Shown here piece after piece: positions 29,874-39,608 of a stretch of DNA of 64,000 nucleotides. Source of the DNA: Methanothermococcus sp. Ax23 (GTDB taxonomy: Archaea > AGJL01 > Methanococci > Methanococcales > Methanococcaceae); assembly GCF_049075655.1 (NCBI RefSeq), contig NZ_CP157522.1:96001-160000 (forward strand), given 5' to 3'. Positions within the stretch are counted from its first letter, which is position 1; each line of letters starts with the position of its first letter. Position numbers and translations under genes: made by a program. Below the pieces are notes generated by a model that worked only from the letters and a program-made list of their open reading frames with translations, was not told the DNA's origin and did not search any database.

Positions 29874-30387
29874 TTAATTTTTGTTTTTTAATTCATCCCT
29901 AATCTCTTTTAAAATTTCTTTCATTTCGTTCTGTCCTTTTATTATAGTTTCTTGCCCTTTTTTAACTTCTTCCAAAATTCCAAATATCATTTTAATATAT
30001 TTAACTCCTTCATCAAGTTTTTTATTCAATCGGAGTGAGCGAAGCGAACGGAGAGCTACGAAAACATTGGTTTTCGTTCAATTCCATTAAATCATCCGCT
30101 GATATTCTATTGATTCCTTTTGGAAATTCAATATATGAATTTAGTTCTTTTTCCTCAATCTCTTCTATTTTGATTAACTCATCCTTTTTTGCCAATGTCT
30201 TAATATTTCTTTTGAATAAATCTTTTATTTCTTCATCATCAAAGTTTGCCAAAATCCTAACTGTTCCATCCTCATAATTATAAACTACTCCATCAATACC
30301 TAAACCTCTCCCAATGTCTTCTATCCTATCTCTAAATCCAACATGCTGGACTTTACCATATATTTTTAACTCGTAAGTTGTCGCCAT
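29874..30387 (-). pseudogene. Acylphosphatase-domain/coiled-coil protein disrupted by a micro-insertion
   Basis: [20 protein letters not shown] fold motif. Removing 52 bp restores a 153 aa ORF ending ..[21 protein letters not shown]. Confidence 0.85.
30031..30076 (-). mobile_element. Double-hairpin micro-insertion with TTCAAT duplication
   Basis: ttcaat at 30025-30030 and 30077-30082 flanks a GC-rich insert containing gagcgaagcga and acgaaaac-attg-gttttcgt. Confidence 0.85.
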
Positions 30388-33561: not shown

Positions 33562-34434
33562 TTATTTAACGAGCTTTTCCAAATATTTTCCATAATCAGT
33601 TTTTAATAATGGCTCGGCAAGTTTTAGGAGCTCATCCTTTGTTATCCATCCATTATGATAGGCAATCTCTTCCAAACATCCAACCATCAATCCCATTCTT
33701 TTTTCCACTGCTGCAATAAAATTACTTGCTTCCAAAAAACTCTCATGGGTTCCAGCATCAAACCATGCCGTCCCCCTTGGTAAAAGTTTTACCTTTAATT
33801 TATTTCTTTTTAAATACTCATTATTTACATCAGTTATTTCCAACTCTCCTCTCCATGAAGGTTTTATATTTTTCGCAATATCAATAACATTATTATCGTA
33901 AAAGTAAAGACCGATTACTGCATAATTTGAAGGCGGATTTTTCGGTTTTTCAATTATTTCCTTTACATTTCCATTTTCATCAAATTCAACAACCCCATAT
34001 CTTTCAGGGTCTTTTACATACTGACCAAACACCACACCCCCTCCATCTTTTAGGAGCTCCTCTTTTGCATCAAGTAAAAATCCTGTCAATCCACTTCCAT
34101 ATACAATATTATCTCCAAGTATGAGACATACGCTGTCATCCCCTATAAACTCTTCCCCAATAATAAATGCCTCTGCAAGCCCTCTCGGTTCCAGCTGTTC
34201 TTTATATTGTATATTTATTCCCAAATGCCCACCATTTCCTAAAAGTTTTTTATATCTCGGCAAATCCTCAGGTGTTGTTATTATCAATATATCCTTAATT
34301 TTAGACAGCATTAAAACAGATAGTGAGTAATATATCATAGGTTTGTTATATATTGGCATCAGATGTTTATTTCCAGCATAGGTAATGGGATATAACCTAG
34401 TTCCAGAACCTCCCGCTAAAATTATACCTTTCAT
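33562..34434 (-). CDS. rfbA: Glucose-1-phosphate thymidylyltransferase
   Basis: [32 protein letters not shown]. Confidence 0.95.
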
Positions 34435-34512
34435 TATTTCACCATTTTAATATATTTAATGTAATTTATATATTACGATAAACCGCCGGGAAAGCCAACG
34501 ACTTCAGTCGTT

Positions 34513-34547
34513 ATACAAAACATAGTTTTGTAAAATCTCTTACGAGA
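34513..34547 (+). mobile_element. Double-hairpin micro-insertion splitting the IS left-end hairpin
   Basis: tt|atacaaaac-ata-gttttgta-aaatctc-ttac-gaga|tt. Removing it restores ccaacgacttcagtcgttgg. Confidence 0.75.
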
Positions 34548-34644
34548 TTGGATGAGAGGCGGACATTCTATATTCCACACAATCAAAAATTATATGTAAT
34601 TAAATAATATGTAATTAAATATATAAACTATATTTATAAGAACT

Positions 34645-35918
34645 ATGGTGAATTCCATGCAAGTAACCAGAGTGCTGACAATAAACCTAACAAGAAAACT
34701 AACCAATGAACAATTAATAATCATAAACCATTTAACCTATTCAGCATCAAAACTCTGGAATACATCCAACTACGAAGTAATACAGCGAAATATTAAACCA
34801 AATAAAATAGATGTTCAAATGAAGAACAACTTCTGGTTTAAAAATCTTCATTCACAGTCAGCACAGGCAGTATGTCAAAAACTTCAAATTAGACGAAAAC
34901 CTTCGGTTTTCGTTGCTCGCTTGCTACGCAAGCGATTGCATGGCAAAACTACTTCAAACAGCACACTAAAAGACCACGATACCAACCAAAAGATGGACAC
35001 TTTCCCGTAAAATGGAAGAAGCAAGGTTTCAAAATCATAGGCAATAAGTTAAGGTTATCATTATCTAAACAAACTAAAAACTATCTCAAAGAGAAGCATG
35101 GTATCAAGTCCAAGTACTTATGGGTAGATTTATCGAAAACTCTACCGCTTGATACCATGCAGGTTAAAGAAGTTGAGATAGTTCCGCAGACCATCTATGG
35201 GATAACCTACTACATACTTCACTTAATCCATAAGAAACCAGTAATTCAAGAACCTATCAAAGAAGGTAATATACTAAGTATTGATTTAGGAATTAAGAAT
35301 TTAGCAACAGTAGTAACCAATACGGGCAGTGCAGTAATCTACGATGGAAGAAGGTTAATTTCTAAATTCCGATGGTTTGCTAAAAGTAAAGGAAAAATCC
35401 AATCTACCCTAACAAAGCAAGAGTTAAAATATAATAAACGATTATCCCGCTTAACAGTAAGGGAAAAGAATTATACTAAGGATTATCTACATAAAATAAG
35501 TAAAATGATTATCGATTTTGCAGTGGATAACAAAGTTTCAAGGATTGTAATCGGCGAGTTAAACAAAGGCATTTCAAGTATTGACATTGGAGATAGGGTT
35601 AATCAGCAATTGCATAGAATACCTTTTGGTAGGTTAGTAAGTATGATAACATATAAGGCAGAGGAAAAGGGATTAACAGTAGAACAGGTTAATGAAGCTT
35701 ATACTTCTCAAACTTGCAGTAATTGTGGTGTAGTTAAAAAGAGTAATAGGAAGTATAGGGGTTTGTATGTGTGTAGTGAGTGTGGCATGGTTTTGAATGC
35801 AGACATTAACGGGGCTTTGAATATTTTAAAAAAAGTATCGCATAAGGTAGCCCTGAATCTCCTAAACGGAGATAGGGGTAGTGGGCTTGGCAACCCATGT
35901 AGGGTTAGACCCTGCTAA
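34645..35918 (+). pseudogene. tnpB: TnpB RNA-guided nuclease frameshifted by a 47 bp insertion
   Basis: N-terminal SKLWN..LHSQSAQ; RuvC SIDLG / IVIGEL / NADINGA; Zn finger CSNC..CSEC. Removing 47 bp joins both ORFs into 408 aa with no stops. Confidence 0.9.
34891..34934 (+). mobile_element. Double-hairpin micro-insertion with ATT duplication inside tnpB
   Basis: att|ag-acgaaaacc-ttc-ggttttcgt-tgc-tcgcttgc-tac-gcaagcg|att. Confidence 0.88.
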
Positions 35919-36030
35919 AGAACCCCACGACTTTAGTCGTGGGAGTAGGTCAGTTAATGCTAAAATCAAAGGTTTTTTAATCACCTTGAAGGAATTTTTA
36001 ATCCTCCACTACACATAGGATGGTGCCATT

Positions 36031-36774
36031 ATGTTTCTATTCAATGAAAAAATTTCAATAAAGGAAACCAATATAACTTTAAAAACAGAGGCAGAAAAAT
36101 TTATAAAACTTGCAAAAAAAACCATTTTAAGGGAAAGAATAAATCTTGAAAATTATATTTTAAAACATCCTGAATTCCTAACAAGCTATGTCCCAGTAAG
36201 GGTTAGTGTTGATGCACCGAAAATAGTTAAGATAATGGCAAGAGCAGGAGAAAATGCAGATGTTGGACCTATGGCATCTGTTGCAGGAACCATAAGTCAG
36301 ATGGTAGTTGAAAATGCTGTAAAATATGGATGTAAAAATATAATATCGGAGAACGGTGGAGATATAGCACTAAGGGCTGAGAAAGATATTGTGGTTGGGC
36401 TATATGCTGGAACATCTTCATTATCTGGTCAGATTGGATTTAAAATAGAAAAAGAGAAAACTTCAAAAGGATATGGTGTATGCACATCTTCGGGGACTGT
36501 TGGGCATTCTGTAAGCCTTGGAAATGCTGATGCAGTTGTGGTTTTTGCAAAAGAAAGTAGTATAGCAGATGCCGCAGCCACGAGTATAGGAAACTTTGCC
36601 ACCGGAGCTCCTGATGAAGCCATTAATAAATGTTTGGAAAAGGCAGAAGATATTGATTATTTAGACGGCGTTTTTGTCGTTGTTGGAGAATATGCCGGTA
36701 AAATCGGAAAAATACCACAATTGGTTAAAACCGATAAAAAAGTTGCACTTGGAGAGTTTTTTGAGATGATATAA
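36031..36774 (+). CDS. UPF0280 (ApbE-superfamily) protein
   Basis: VGPMASVAG, ENGGDI, CTSSGTVGHSVSLG, ADAAAT. Confidence 0.88.
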   Translation: MFLFNEKISIKETNITLKTEAEKFIKLAKKTILRERINLENYILKHPEFLTSYVPVRVSVDAPKIVKIMARAGENADVGPMASVAGTISQMVVENAVKYGCKNIISENGGDIALRAEKDIVVGLYAGTSSLSGQIGFKIEKEKTSKGYGVCTSSGTVGHSVSLGNADAVVVFAKESSIADAAATSIGNFATGAPDEAINKCLEKAEDIDYLDGVFVVVGEYAGKIGKIPQLVKTDKKVALGEFFEMI

Positions 36775-36803: not shown

Positions 36804-37436
36804 TTAGAATATATTTTTTTCCCGGAGCTCCCCTATTATCTCATCATGCACTTCTTCAATGGTCTTTCCAGTGGTATCTATTTGAATATATCCATATTTT
36901 GGTTCAAACAATCTTCTTTCAATGATTTCATGATATTTTTTTCTTACCTTCTCCAACATTTCCTTATTTTCAAATATTTCTTTACTTCTTCCACCCATTC
37001 TTTTAAATGATTCTTCAATATCCACATCTAAAAATATTAAAACATCGGGTTTTTTGGCAAATTTATTGATATTCATGATAAAATCCAATTCAATCCCCTG
37101 AATAGACTGATAAACCATTGAAGAATAAATATATCTATCGCAAACAATGTGGGATTTTTTTAAATTTTGTTCTATATCCACTACATGCTCCACCCTATCT
37201 GCTGCAAACAGCAGTGCAAGTGTTTCTTTTTCGCATTTCGAGCGTAGCGAGGAATGAGCAAGTCCGCAGGATTTGCGTAATTTTTTACCGCTTAATACCT
37301 TTCGTATAAGTTTTCCAATCTCTCCATTTGTAGGTTCGCAGGTGTATTTTCCCTTTATTTTTTCAGAAAGTAGTTTCGACTGGGTAGTTTTTCCGCTTCC
37401 ATCTATTCCTTCAAACACTATGAATTTATTATTCAT
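36804..37436 (-). CDS. tmk: Thymidylate kinase carrying a 15 aa in-frame insertion
   Basis: [31 protein letters not shown]; extra segment [15 protein letters not shown]. Confidence 0.93.
37239..37279 (-). mobile_element. Double-hairpin micro-insertion (AAAT duplication, net 45 bp) inside tmk
   Basis: Minus strand reads aaat|tac-gcaaatcc-tgc-ggacttgc-tcattc-ctcgctacgctcg|aaat. Confidence 0.85.
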
Positions 37437-37569
37437 TTCTTCCACCAAATGCTAAATACTGCTATACACTATACTGTTTATAACTAAAAAGAGAATATAA
37501 TAAAATATATGATATAACAAATCCGCATAATAATATCCATTATAATAATACAGGTTTACAATTATAGAT

Positions 37570-39495
37570 TTATAAATTCTTTAATAATTCAATTTCTTTA
37601 TCCAAATCTGGTTTTCTTATGCTTTTTACTGAAAATTCAAGGTCTTCAAACCTTCTATCTGCTGAACCATGGAATATAAATTCTTCACCAAGTAATGCAT
37701 CCAGGAGCTCCAAATTAGCATCTTTCAATTTATCCATTGGAGTTTCAGTAATTCTTTCCACAGTTCTACCGTATAATCTGCAAGTAATGTTGCCTGTGCC
37801 ATCATCCACGGTTAATGTAGCTACTGCAACTTCCCTAGGTTCAACTTCTCCGCATTCATCACAATTATAACTACCTTCGCTTAAAACTGCTTTTTTACCA
37901 CAATTTGGGCACAAATGCAATATTAAATCCTGTTTTCTGTAATCTACAATTGCCCCTCTAATTTCAGCAGTTTCTCCTTCTTCAAGCTCTTTTATAAACT
38001 TCCTATTTACTTTTATATCTATACCTTCGGGATTGACAACAATTCTTCCAAATCTACCTATGTTTAAATCAACAAATTCCCCGCTATCCTTCACATATCC
38101 ATGAATTATTTTTACAATATCTCCCTCTTTTATGTCGAGCTCCGCATCCTTGTCCCATAACACCAATCTGATTTTTCCAGTTTCATCTTCTATCATCATG
38201 TTTCTTACTTTTCCTGTGGTTCCGTCGCCTCTTTCAAATTCATTAATATCATATATAACTGATACCCTTCCAACTGTTGTAATGTCATTTTTTGATTCTT
38301 CATCTAATTTATAAATATCATTTATTTTAATTATGTTTTCAGCGTATTCAGGAGCTCCGATGGATTCATCCTTTATTACTTTTGAATCAGATTGTGCAGA
38401 TAATGATATTATTTCATTCCCTTCAAAATCGGTGTAGGATTTAACCTTACAGTTTGTGATTTTTACGGCGTCTCCTTCTTTTATATCATTTAACGCATTG
38501 GTATTTCTTCCCCAAAATGATATTCTAACATTTCCGCTGTTGTCCATTAAATTAATTTCCTGAACATCCACCTCCCTATCATCAAATTTAACCGTTCTTG
38601 GATTTGAAATATGGGTAATTCTACCCTTTACAATTACAACATCATCCTTGTAGTTTGGGAGCTCCGATATATCCACCTCTGGAACCTCTGCAACTTCTCC
38701 TTTATTTAATATATTTATGGTATTGACATTTATATCAAGTCCTCTTAATCCTTCCTTCACATAACCTTTTACCTCAACAACGTCCCCCTTATTTACCTCA
38801 ATTTCTGCCAAATCATCCCAGAGAGTGCCCCTTATTGTTCCCGTATCATCTTTTAGTATGAAGGATTTTACCCTTCCAACTGACCCATCTTTTCTTGGGA
38901 ATTCTCTCTTATCATAGGATGCTGTAATTTCTCCCTTTATTGTGGCAGGCATATTTGGGGTGAGCTCTGAAATACTATAATATTCCTTCACTATGGGATA
39001 CTTAGATTCATCGTAATCTTCAAGTTTTTCAATGTTTAAATCAGAACCGCTGTTTAATTCGATTCTATTATTCCATTTTCTTGAAAATGCGTTTGTTATT
39101 TCAATAACATCCCCTTTTTTTAAATTATCAACCAGTTGCACCTTATCATTCCAAAGTGTTAATCTAATGGAACCTGTATTATCTGCAATAATTATGCTCC
39201 TTACTTTTCCCTTTGTTCCATCTTTTCTGCTAAATTCCTTTACGTCAGAAATATCCATAATTTTTCCAGTGACTTCTACATTTCTCTGACCTTCGGCTAT
39301 ATCTTTAATAGAAAAGCCATATTCTTCATCATCGTCATATTCTAAATCTAAGCCTAAATCACTGGCAATTATTGAAATTGCAGCTTTTTCATCCATTAAT
39401 CCAGAGTGTTCATTTATTACTTCATTAATTTTAGTTTCAAGTTCTTTTTCAGACATTTTTGTCAATATTTTTTGTTTTAATTTTTCAATATCCAT
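37570..39495 (-). CDS. rpa: Replication protein A (multi-OB-fold ssDNA-binding protein with Zn finger)
   Basis: Four DxTG.IR.TLW OB-fold repeats plus CPNC..CDEC. Confidence 0.92.
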   Translation of the reverse strand: MDIEKLKQKILTKMSEKELETKINEVINEHSGLMDEKAAISIIASDLGLDLEYDDDEEYGFSIKDIAEGQRNVEVTGKIMDISDVKEFSRKDGTKGKVRSIIIADNTGSIRLTLWNDKVQLVDNLKKGDVIEITNAFSRKWNNRIELNSGSDLNIEKLEDYDESKYPIVKEYYSISELTPNMPATIKGEITASYDKREFPRKDGSVGRVKSFILKDDTGTIRGTLWDDLAEIEVNKGDVVEVKGYVKEGLRGLDINVNTINILNKGEVAEVPEVDISELPNYKDDVVIVKGRITHISNPRTVKFDDREVDVQEINLMDNSGNVRISFWGRNTNALNDIKEGDAVKITNCKVKSYTDFEGNEIISLSAQSDSKVIKDESIGAPEYAENIIKINDIYKLDEESKNDITTVGRVSVIYDINEFERGDGTTGKVRNMMIEDETGKIRLVLWDKDAELDIKEGDIVKIIHGYVKDSGEFVDLNIGRFGRIVVNPEGIDIKVNRKFIKELEEGETAEIRGAIVDYRKQDLILHLCPNCGKKAVLSEGSYNCDECGEVEPREVAVATLTVDDGTGNITCRLYGRTVERITETPMDKLKDANLELLDALLGEEFIFHGSADRRFEDLEFSVKSIRKPDLDKEIELLKNL

Positions 39496-39608
39496 AATTT
39501 CACCATATTAAACGTAGTGAGAGATTACGAAACCTTGTTTCGTTGTTTTATTTTTTAATGCAATTTAAAATCTCTGATTTTTATTATTCTGAGTATTAGT
39601 GAGAGATT

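What the first reader, a model, noticed from the sequence alone, without database searches (positions are those of the whole stretch)
34482..35952. A TnpB transposon disabled twice by micro-insertions
Seen: one insert splits the left-end hairpin (34513-34547) and another frameshifts tnpB (34891-34934). The RuvC D-E-D triad, Zn finger and right-end hairpin are otherwise intact. Established: TnpA needs the subterminal hairpins, and TnpB promotes element retention. Two of the five clear inserts fall in this 1.5 kb. Inference: the micro-elements prefer IS605 DNA (hyper-parasitism, perhaps using TnpA or ssDNA intermediates), or hits there are favoured because they silence the IS.
Basis: partly seen in the sequence, partly recalled or inferred. 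Interest (0 to 1): 0.72.

Follow-up and report, generated by a model that had tools for sequence, protein, structure and literature searches.

The report
Hairpin micro-inserts nested in IS605 ends
One copy of a small archaeal jumping gene carries two tiny hairpin-shaped inserts that it inherited from its family, not acquired itself, and across the genome such inserts gather at the folded ends of this kind of jumping gene, as if a smaller parasite rides on a larger one.

Summary
The window holds one tnpB-only IS200/IS605 copy (34477-35953, directly after a TTAC). Compared with paralogues it carries two extra double-hairpin segments. One is 37 nt in the 3' arm of the left-end hairpin. The other is 47 nt in tnpB and causes a frameshift. 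The RuvC and Zn motifs and the right-end hairpin are intact.

These are not two hits on this copy. The left-end insert occurs in 33 IS/MITE copies of this genome and in 0 of 39 other Methanococcales genomes. The tnpB insert is in 7 of 10 full copies. The copies are recombinant mosaics, and all 26 MITEs examined sit after TTAC. The subfamily with inserts at both ends is the largest (15 of 26). The genome has no Y1 TnpA, so every copy is non-autonomous anyway.

Short hairpin modules (152 loci versus 8 in shuffled DNA) insert without target duplication. They lie in or beside the subterminal hairpins of at least four IS200/IS605 families, often at different positions in different copies. 20 of 79 independent sites are affected against 9.8% expected (p about 6e-5). 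A tnpB-anchored test is weaker (p = 0.023). The mechanism, hairpin- or ssDNA-targeted integration, is inferred, not shown.

The parts
34473..34476 (+). TTAC target tetranucleotide directly 5' of the IS left end
   Evidence: All 9 close full copies and 26 of 26 MITE copies are preceded by TTAC; read directly.
34477..35953 (+). tnpB-only IS200/IS605-family element (family 1 of this genome), non-autonomous
   Evidence: blastn finds 10 full-length and 27 MITE-like copies in the genome. Similarity among copies ends at these borders. No Y1 TnpA is found in the genome.
34495..34512 (+). Left-end subterminal hairpin (5' arm, loop, first 6 nt of the 3' arm). The last 2 nt of the arm are displaced to 34550-34551
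   Evidence: The uninserted paralogue shows the uninterrupted 8-bp hairpin. The DNA fold keeps a 6-bp stem.
34513..34549 (+). 37-nt two-hairpin micro-insert in the 3' arm of the left-end hairpin (family allele, not private to this copy)
   Evidence: Present in 8 of 9 close full copies and 21 of 27 MITEs. 33 pattern matches in G000 and none in 39 other genomes of the order. The same insert sits at the same place in 3 copies of IS family 2.
34645..34887 (+). tnpB N-terminal part (81 codons) before the insert
   Evidence: ORF list, translation, alignment with intact paralogues.
34889..34935 (+). 47-nt two-hairpin micro-element (5' hairpin plus 3' hairpin of a ~95-nt four-hairpin long form); shifts the tnpB frame
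   Evidence: Absent from paralogues at C1:1300980 and C1:431440 and present in 7 of 10 full copies. nhmmer family. Long form. RNA fold z = -3.8.
34938..35918 (+). tnpB C-terminal part, open for 326 codons. RuvC motifs at 35277-35291, 35550-35564 and 35796-35813; CxxC pairs at 35715-35729 and 35772-35786
   Evidence: Pfam, PDB homologues, motif coordinates.
35327..35328 (+). Empty site where 3 other copies carry a 48-nt in-frame micro-element
   Evidence: Alignment; 3 of 10 copies inserted.
35919..35920 (+). Empty site, 4 nt 5' of the right-end hairpin, where 3 full copies and 18 of 27 MITEs carry a 49-51-nt micro-element
35924..35943 (+). Right-end subterminal hairpin (8-bp stem, 4-nt loop), intact
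   Evidence: Perfect-hairpin scan. A sub-threshold Rfam HgcC match covers 35855-35966.
30030..30082 (-). Another micro-element of the same superfamily, forming the 3' end of an acylphosphatase-like ORF

Best explanation
The locus is an ordinary non-autonomous, tnpB-only copy of a 37-member IS200/IS605 family, in a Methanococcales genome that has no Y1 transposase. Its two micro-inserts are alleles of the IS family. Each arose once in an ancestral copy within this lineage and was then carried to many TTAC sites by transposition and shuffled among copies by recombination. The left-end insert therefore did not stop propagation. The 47-nt insert does break the tnpB frame in this copy.

The inserts belong to a genome-wide population of 27-100-nt modular hairpin elements that integrate without target-site duplication. 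These elements are concentrated in and next to the subterminal hairpins of several IS200/IS605 families.

Shown: the anatomy, the inheritance, the mosaicism, the absence of TnpA, the lack of target duplication, and the statistical association with IS ends. Inferred: that integration is directed to hairpin-forming or single-stranded DNA, most likely by an HUH/Y1-type enzyme acting in trans that this genome has since lost. On that reading the micro-elements are hyper-parasites that also hitch-hike on IS amplification.
For: Inheritance:
- The left-end insert is in 8 of 9 close full copies and 21 of 27 MITEs. It gives 33 matches in G000 and 0 in 39 other genomes.
- The tnpB insert is in 7 of 10 full copies.
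- 26 of 26 MITEs follow TTAC, and the subfamily with inserts at both ends has 15 members at a median 93% identity.
- Mosaicism: neighbouring 120-nt windows of one pair of copies differ by 0-1 and by 19-24 positions.
- No PF01797 match in the genome, which is 98.9% complete. 6 of 40 genomes of the order have a match, and it is intact in 3.
- An autonomous relative has a simple left-end hairpin.

Element family:
- nhmmer gives 108 hits, and there is a four-hairpin long form.
- 152 hairpin-module loci against 8 in shuffled DNA.
- The 5' module is present in 14 of 40 genomes of the order, with 0-2 control hits per strand in any genome.

No target duplication:
- Orthologous empty sites exist for C1:475887 and C1:1536607.
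- Four paralogous empty/filled pairs agree.

Preference for IS ends:
- Family 3 has three different insertion points around one left-end hairpin, plus one at the right end.
- Family 2 has inserts in the loop and an arm of the left end and 8 nt before the right-end hairpin.
- Family 5/7 has inserts in the loop, in an arm and at both feet.
- 58 of 152 loci, and 20 of 79 independent site clusters, lie within 60 nt of an IS-type arm, against 9.8% of random non-coding 20-mers (binomial 5.7e-5).
- 6 independent clusters fall in 10.8 kb of tnpB flanks against 2.15 expected (p = 0.023).
- 34 of 65 profile hits lie in family-1 IS DNA, which shows the hitch-hiking.
Against: - The hairpin-arm patterns used were written after I had seen elements at IS ends, so that test is partly circular. 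They are also loose: 662 sites against 416 in shuffled DNA.
- The a-priori tnpB-anchored test is only modestly significant (p = 0.023).
- My first estimate, using family 1 alone, was not significant: 4 events in 23-28 kb against 17 in 222 kb of intergenic DNA (counts, collapsed by hand; hand Poisson about 0.10-0.18).
- IS ends may simply be the most dispensable DNA in a compact genome.
- Insertion points vary (foot, arm, loop) and no target motif emerged, unlike the precise site choice known for IS200/IS605 TnpA.
- No candidate enzyme is present in this genome. The plasmid encodes a helicase-like protein and no HUH Rep.
- Because the copies recombine freely, spread of the insert alleles by gene conversion, without transposition, cannot be excluded.
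- All four combinations of left-end and right-end insert states exist among the MITEs.
Confidence: 0.6

Rival explanations
1. No targeting. Micro-elements insert anywhere and survive only where DNA is dispensable. IS and MITE ends are the largest pool of truly neutral DNA in a compact genome, and IS amplification then multiplies whatever they carry.
For: 34 of 65 profile hits are in IS DNA but reduce to 4 events (and my collapse of it), and the family-1-only estimate is not significant. Coding DNA holds 23 of 79 independent clusters in 86% of the genome, which shows strong filtering by selection.
Against: Within IS/MITE DNA the events cluster within about 30 nt of the subterminal hairpins: 18 of 79 clusters lie within 30 nt. 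Family 3 has 4 of 4 events at the hairpins. None was seen in the roughly 110-nt untranslated leader or in MITE bodies of family 1. Several inserts lie inside loops or arms.
Confidence: 0.2
2. The modules are not transposons. They are patches copied from other loci when breaks or stalled forks at hairpin-forming DNA are repaired by template switching. Hairpins, including IS ends and earlier patches, therefore attract further patches.
For: - No target duplication.
- Modular and variable composition: the same 5' hairpin occurs with at least three different 3' modules, and an orthologous site has different 3' modules in G000 and G003.
- Arrays of nested hairpins.
- Elements are present in genomes without a Y1 gene.
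- 1-4-nt sequence overlaps at junctions.
Against: The termini are conserved: a fixed 5' lead before the first hairpin, and an end exactly at the foot of the last hairpin. The same three stem variants recur in two families of the order. Both features fit a defined mobile unit better than ad hoc patches.
Confidence: 0.15
3. One reading: this IS copy was struck twice, independently and recently, and is thereby disabled at both its left end and its tnpB. Such hits are favoured because they silence the IS.
For: Both segments are extra relative to uninserted paralogues and to an autonomous relative. The 47-nt insert shifts the frame.
Against: Both inserts have identical junctions in most paralogues at other loci. 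Copies carrying the left-end insert are the majority. There is no TnpA left to silence.
Confidence: 0.04
4. The 47-nt insert is not a null mutation. It is tolerated by recoding (a ribosomal frameshift or hop across the hairpins) or by removal from the RNA, so insert-bearing tnpB copies still make TnpB.
For: - All 7 insert-bearing copies keep both frame halves free of further stops or indels.
- dN/dS among them is 0.11-0.34, with dS up to 0.34.
- The insert is identical at 46 of 46 positions in all 7 copies, while 4 positions within 5 nt of its junctions differ between two haplotypes.
- In the window copy and two others, an ATT codon in the N frame (34888-34890) and an ATT in the C frame (34935-34937) lie exactly 47 nt apart (sequence).
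Against: The mosaic recombination among copies explains the low dN/dS and the open frames without any selection on the broken genes. 4 of 7 copies have ATT and ATA, not a matched pair. No stop or other stalling signal follows the first ATT: the N frame runs on for 40 codons. No bulge-helix-bulge motif appears in the fold. No in-frame start exists between 34893 and 35157.
Confidence: 0.05

Closest known systems
IS200/IS605-family tnpB-only elements (IS1341 type) and their MITE-like derivatives (palindrome-associated transposable elements, PATEs)
   Same: TnpB with RuvC and a Zn ribbon. Subterminal hairpins at both ends, no inverted repeats and no target duplication. Insertion directly 3' of a fixed tetranucleotide (TTAC here). 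Short derivatives keeping only the two ends.
   Different: No TnpA anywhere in the genome. The ends of most copies carry extra hairpin modules that an autonomous relative lacks. For PATEs I saw only a search listing (PMC3119063). The IS608-type mechanism is recalled, not read here.
[quoted passage not shown]
   Same: Short palindromic repeats in an AT-rich Methanococcales genome, mostly intergenic, some inside protein-coding genes without destroying them. The 5' module found here also occurs in genomes of the sister family.
   Different: The paper is not held. I know it only from a citation in PMC2229807 and from recall, so identity with MJRE could not be tested. As far as I recall it reports no association with IS200/IS605 ends. 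Its text and supplements may bear on this.
REP/BIME elements and their RAYT (REP-associated Y1) transposases in bacteria
   Same: Hairpins of 20-40 nt with a conserved short lead next to the stem. Clustered arrays, no target duplication, and a presumed HUH/Y1 enzyme acting in trans.
   Different: No Y1 gene in this genome. These elements are archaeal, enter coding regions, and are aimed at IS ends. In bacteria it is ISs that are known to target REPs, which is the reverse direction (recalled). For the RAYT papers I saw only listings and abstract starts.
Rickettsia palindromic elements, mitochondrial GC clusters and 'byps', sponge mitochondrial repetitive hairpin-forming elements, and the mobile T4 gene 60 bypass cassette
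   Same: Small hairpin-forming mobile inserts, richer in G+C than their AT-rich host genomes, that invade coding regions. Some are read through in frame and some are bypassed by ribosomes.
   Different: Those cases have no link to IS200/IS605, and bypassing is not shown here. I saw listings only and passages of PMC2229807. The rest is recalled.

Membership tests
IS200/IS605 (tnpB-only, IS1341 type) | TnpB with a split RuvC (D, E, D) and a Zn ribbon | tested here: met
   Pfam OrfB_IS605 (3.3e-22) and Cas12f1-like TNB (3.1e-25). PDB TnpB/Cas12f homologues down to 1e-17. Motifs located. Assigning the catalytic residues rests on that alignment and on recalled motif knowledge.
IS200/IS605 (tnpB-only, IS1341 type) | Subterminal hairpins at both ends, no terminal inverted repeats, no target duplication, insertion 3' of a fixed tetranucleotide | tested here: met
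   Left-end and right-end hairpins. TTAC precedes 9 of 9 close full copies and 26 of 26 MITEs. The flanks of the copies are unrelated.
IS200/IS605 (tnpB-only, IS1341 type) | A Y1 (HUH) TnpA available in cis or in trans | tested here: not met
   0 matches to PF01797 in the 98.9%-complete genome, while the control rings in 6 of 14 named genomes. The element is therefore a non-autonomous and currently immobile member. Relatives with tnpA exist in G014, G023 and G038.
IS200/IS605 (tnpB-only, IS1341 type) | Guide (omega/right-end) RNA scaffold at the 3' end | tested here: inconclusive
   Only a sub-threshold Rfam HgcC match: 21.6 bits against a gathering score of 50, at 35855-35966. A right end carrying the insert gives no match.
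MJRE palindromic elements of Methanocaldococcus jannaschii | Sequence membership in MJRE1, 2 or 3 | not testable with these tools
   The paper and its sequences are not held. Only a citation was seen.
DDE-type MITEs | Terminal inverted repeats and a target-site duplication of 2 nt or more | tested here: not met
   Two orthologous and four paralogous empty/filled pairs show 0-2 nt of junction ambiguity and no fixed duplication. The two ends are different hairpins.
REP/RAYT systems | A RAYT (Y1) gene in the genome, typically flanked by its REPs | tested here: not met
   No PF01797 match in the genome.
Programmed translational bypass or frameshift cassette | Matched take-off and landing codons with a stalling signal, and a full-length protein product | tested here: inconclusive
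   A matched ATT/ATT pair 47 nt apart occurs in 3 of 7 copies and ATT/ATA in the other 4. No stop follows the take-off codon. The product is not testable here.
Archaeal bulge-helix-bulge intron | Splice sites in two 3-nt bulges around a 4-bp helix | tested here: inconclusive
   The minimum-energy and centroid folds show only the two hairpins and a weak long-range helix. No dedicated motif search was run.

The most novel reading that the evidence does not exclude
The 27-100-nt hairpin modules are obligate hyper-parasites of IS200/IS605 elements. A Y1 transposase supplied by such ISs excises them as single strands and integrates them into folded single-stranded hairpins, above all the transposon's own left and right ends. 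They thereby remodel the ends and the guide-RNA scaffold, and spread mainly by riding on the IS and its MITEs. The left-end allele seen in the window would then be a tolerated, perhaps even advantageous, three-hairpin end.
Probability: 0.3. Interest if true: 0.75.

Novelty: new variant of a known kind. Interest (0 to 1): 0.55.

Why it matters
If the preference is real, it is a case of nested parasitism at the smallest scale known in prokaryotes: non-coding hairpin modules of a few dozen bases that colonise the recognition hairpins of single-strand transposons. It would offer natural variants for asking three questions.
- How much a Y1 transposase tolerates changes in its hairpin substrates.
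- How insertions in the right end affect the TnpB guide RNA.
- How hairpin repeats like those reported in Methanocaldococcus move, which is still unknown.

It is also a caution for annotation. Here a frameshifted tnpB and an interrupted end are inherited family alleles, not signs that a given copy decayed in place.

Tried and rejected
Analyses that led nowhere or were set aside:
- Enrichment with family 1 alone. 65 profile hits were collapsed by hand to 4 IS events and about 17 intergenic events. This was not significant and was superseded once other IS families were found.
- Empty site of the window IS in relatives. The orthologues of the flanking genes in G003 and G012 have no IS next to them, but the two flanks are not contiguous there, so there is no clean empty site.
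- dN/dS as evidence that the broken tnpB is still functional. Rejected as decisive because the copies are recombinant mosaics.
- Bulge-helix-bulge intron: not seen in the fold.
- Orientation against replication direction: the cumulative GC skew is noisy and gives no usable origin or terminus. Dropped.
- Orientation of left-end inserts relative to the host IS: by eye about 9 of 11 modules are in the IS's sense. Not tested statistically and not used.
- Several orthologous loci were too AT-rich or too diverged to give clean junctions: C1:478408, 1043319, 1048248 and 1550327.
- Rfam on a right end carrying the insert: no match.
- Plasmid C2 as a source of an HUH enzyme: Pfam finds only a weak DEAD/ResIII helicase signal.
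- The regex found nothing. It was replaced by direct reading.
- Literature searches found no paper describing hairpin micro-elements nested in IS200/IS605 ends of Methanococcales. The library lacks most subscription journals.
- Supplementary files of papers were not requested.
- Not used: structure prediction, complex prediction and the large protein searches.
Full report
**Anatomy.** The window is C1:96001-160000 of a 1.67-Mb, 32% G+C archaeal genome with a 7.7-kb second contig.
- Between a nucleotidyl-transferase gene (33562-34434, minus strand) and an unassigned ORF (36031-36774) lies a 1477-nt element, 34477-35953, directly after a TTAC.
- Its long frame carries Pfam OrfB_IS605 and Cas12f1-like TNB. 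It matches solved TnpB and Cas12f chains, best 1.1e-17.
- The motifs SIDLG, IGELN and NADING and two CxxC pairs are present.
- The right end has a perfect 8-bp hairpin at 35924-35943.
- This is a tnpB-only member of the IS200/IS605 family.

**The two inserts are real.** blastn against the genome finds 10 full-length copies (nine at 86-100% identity, one at 72%) and 27 MITE-like derivatives of about 290-370 nt that keep only the two ends and a short internal piece.
- In the MAFFT alignment of the full copies, a 37-nt segment made of two short hairpins (34513-34549) is missing from copy C1:431440. There the left-end hairpin is an uninterrupted 8-bp stem.
- A 47-nt segment, also two hairpins (34889-34935), is missing from C1:431440 and C1:1300980.
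- 47 nt shifts the frame. The N part ends at 34887 and the C part resumes at 34938.
- An autonomous relative in G023 (tnpA followed by a tnpB whose N-terminus resembles this one) has a simple left-end hairpin, so the three-hairpin end is derived.
- Both regions fold more stably than all 200 shuffles (z -3.8 and -4.9).
- The left-end insert lies 2-3 nt from the foot of the 3' arm and leaves a 6-bp stem inside a closing helix. It does not cut the hairpin through its middle.

**They were inherited, not acquired here.**
- The left-end insert is in 8 of 9 close full copies and 21 of 27 MITEs (5 empty, 1 unclear).
- A junction pattern finds it 33 times in this genome and in none of 39 other genomes of the order.
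- The tnpB insert is in 7 of 10 full copies, with 2 empty. The divergent tenth copy has a similar element about 25 nt downstream, in frame.
- Two further events exist in the family, and the window copy lacks both. One is a 48-nt in-frame element in 3 of 10 copies. The other is a 49-51-nt element 4 nt before the right-end hairpin in 3 full copies and 18 of 27 MITEs.
- All 26 MITEs examined follow TTAC. The subfamily with both end-inserts is the largest, with 15 members at a median 93% identity.
- The copies are recombinant mosaics. For one pair of copies, adjacent 120-nt windows differ by 0-1 and by 19-24 positions, including exchanges between inserted and uninserted copies.
- The genome has no Y1 transposase. 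In the order, 6 of 40 genomes have a match and it is intact in three.
- The simplest history is one insertion per site in this lineage, followed by transposition of the insert-bearing forms while a TnpA was still available, plus gene conversion.
- Conversion alone cannot be excluded, because all four combinations of end states occur among the MITEs.

**State of tnpB.** All seven insert-bearing copies keep both halves free of further stops or indels. Two paralogues and the divergent copy have single open frames of 415-426 codons.
- dN/dS among the seven is 0.11-0.34, with dS up to 0.34.
- Taken alone this would suggest that the broken genes are still under selection. The mosaicism explains it without that: the differences are old haplotype blocks shuffled among copies.
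- One observation remains unexplained. The insert is identical at 46 of 46 positions in all seven copies. Yet two junction haplotypes differ at 4 positions within 5 nt of it, and inserted and uninserted copies differ at 5-6 positions in the 20 nt downstream.
- In three copies, including this one, an ATT in the N frame and an ATT in the C frame lie 47 nt apart. In the other four the pair is ATT and ATA.
- I rate recoding as unlikely. No stalling signal follows, the N frame runs on for 40 codons, and no bulge-helix-bulge motif is seen.

**What the micro-elements are.** An iterated nhmmer search seeded with the 47-nt insert gives 108 hits.
- The unit has a short conserved 5' lead, then a 9-10-bp hairpin, a 3-nt spacer, and a second 8-bp hairpin at whose foot the element ends.
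- A form of about 95 nt has two more hairpins between these, so the 47-nt form looks like an internal-deletion derivative.
- The first hairpin also occurs with other 3' modules.
- A purely structural scan for the first-hairpin type finds 152 loci, against 8 in a block-shuffled genome.
- The 5' module occurs in 14 of 40 genomes of the order, in both families, at 1-10 copies elsewhere against 43 here, with the same three stem variants recurring.
- Orthologous empty sites in G003 and G012 for C1:475887, and in G003 for C1:1536607 (45 nt, in frame), together with the four paralogous pairs, show insertion without a target duplication. At most 1-2 nt are ambiguous.
- There are no inverted terminal repeats.
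- Some insertions are shared with G003 and others are specific to this genome, so activity continued after the two lineages split.

**Preference for IS ends.** Counting only family 1, the raw excess (34 of 65 hits in 1.7% of the genome) collapses to four events and is not significant (and hand arithmetic). Other tnpB families then changed the picture.
- Family 2 (tnpB at C1:372391-373482) has the same 36-37-nt insert at the same place in its left-end hairpin in 3 copies. It has a simple hairpin in 3 others and a long composite element inside the hairpin in 2. Two of its copies also carry elements 8 nt before the right-end hairpin.
- Each of the three copies of family 3 has an element of about 50 nt at a different position: just 5' of the left-end hairpin, inside its 3' arm, or 5 nt 3' of it. 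They share a single hairpin module just before the right-end hairpin.
- Family 5/7 shows inserts in the loop, in the 3' arm and at either foot of its left-end hairpin, in different copies and MITEs.
- Two orphan right ends have an element in the hairpin loop.
- Objectively, 58 of 152 loci lie within 60 nt of an IS-type hairpin arm. After merging neighbours and collapsing paralogues, 20 of 79 independent clusters do so (18 within 30 nt). Random non-coding 20-mers do so at 9.8% and random genomic 20-mers at 5.3% (binomial 5.7e-5).
- Caveat: the arm patterns were written after I had seen the association, and they are loose.
- A test anchored only on tblastn-defined tnpB genes gives 6 independent clusters in 10.8 kb of flanks against 2.15 expected from other non-coding DNA (p = 0.023). 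That background itself contains MITE ends, and the 37-nt left-end insert is not counted by the scan, so this test is conservative.

**Mechanism.** Shown: defined ends, no target duplication, hairpins at both ends, concentration at hairpin-forming IS ends and next to earlier elements, multiplication by hitch-hiking, and no transposase in the present genome.
- Inferred: integration into folded or single-stranded DNA, most plausibly by an HUH/Y1 enzyme in trans.
- Against a classical IS200/IS605 reaction: the insertion points vary and no target motif emerged.
- Two rivals remain open: simple tolerance of insertions in dispensable DNA, and template-switch repair at hairpins.

**Comparison and novelty.** The IS is an ordinary non-autonomous family member.
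- The micro-elements are closest to the palindromic repeats reported in Methanocaldococcus jannaschii. I know that paper only through a citation and recall, because it is not held.
- They are more loosely like REP/RAYT elements, Rickettsia palindromic elements and mitochondrial hairpin elements (listings only).
- What appears new is their nesting in the recognition hairpins of several IS200/IS605 families, and the consequence that most of their copies in this genome are passengers of IS amplification.
- Searches found no description of this.

**Limits.** Gene calls for the density tests are a crude longest-ORF set. Several counts of independent events rest on my reading of alignments.

Noticed in passing
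window 35855-35966: Sub-threshold Rfam match to HgcC family RNA (21.6 bits, gathering score 50) over the 3' end of tnpB and the right end of the IS. This suggests that this old 'high-GC' RNA family corresponds to the right-end (guide-RNA) region of such ISs. A right end carrying the 49-nt insert gave no match.
   Followed up: partly
window 37228-37297 (thymidylate-kinase-like ORF 36804-37448, minus strand): About 42-70 nt extra relative to the orthologues in G005, G001 and G006, but shared with G003 and G012. It is probably an old, degenerate in-frame micro-element.
   Followed up: partly
window 30030-30082 (minus strand) and 39527-39543: Two more hairpin modules. One supplies the last codons and the stop of an acylphosphatase-like ORF (30022-30387). 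The other lies just upstream of the start of an RPA-like gene (37570-39495).
   Followed up: partly
G000 C1:313976, 385553, 776910, 1121801, 1134574, 1232406, 1296063: A second micro-element family with two different hairpins joined by a conserved spacer, found mostly inside crude ORF calls. It was not characterised.
   Followed up: no
G000 C1:560144-560430, 232376-232481, 550725-550815, 1587506-1587872: Arrays of three to eight adjacent hairpin modules, some starting at a remnant of an IS left end. They look like repeated insertion into earlier inserts.
   Followed up: partly
G000 C1:1141807-1141855 and following: The 49-nt right-end element followed by a family-1 right-end hairpin and terminus, but with unrelated sequence on its 5' side. 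It is either a truncated IS or a mini-unit made of a micro-element plus the right end.
   Followed up: no
G000 C1:1276530 against G003 (L037): At one orthologous site, the element has the same first hairpin but a different 3' module in the two genomes.
   Followed up: no
L067 (G000 C2, 7732 nt): The small second contig encodes one very long ORF that runs across the contig ends (about 1240 codons) with weak DEAD/ResIII helicase signals, plus a few small ORFs. No HUH replication protein was found by Pfam, and there were no nhmmer hits on C2.
   Followed up: partly
window 34883-34940 and paralogues: Substitutions are concentrated at the junctions of the 47-nt insert (4 differing positions within 5 nt), while the insert itself is invariant in seven copies. 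In addition, 5-6 fixed differences in the next 20 nt separate inserted from uninserted copies. This is unexplained.
   Followed up: partly
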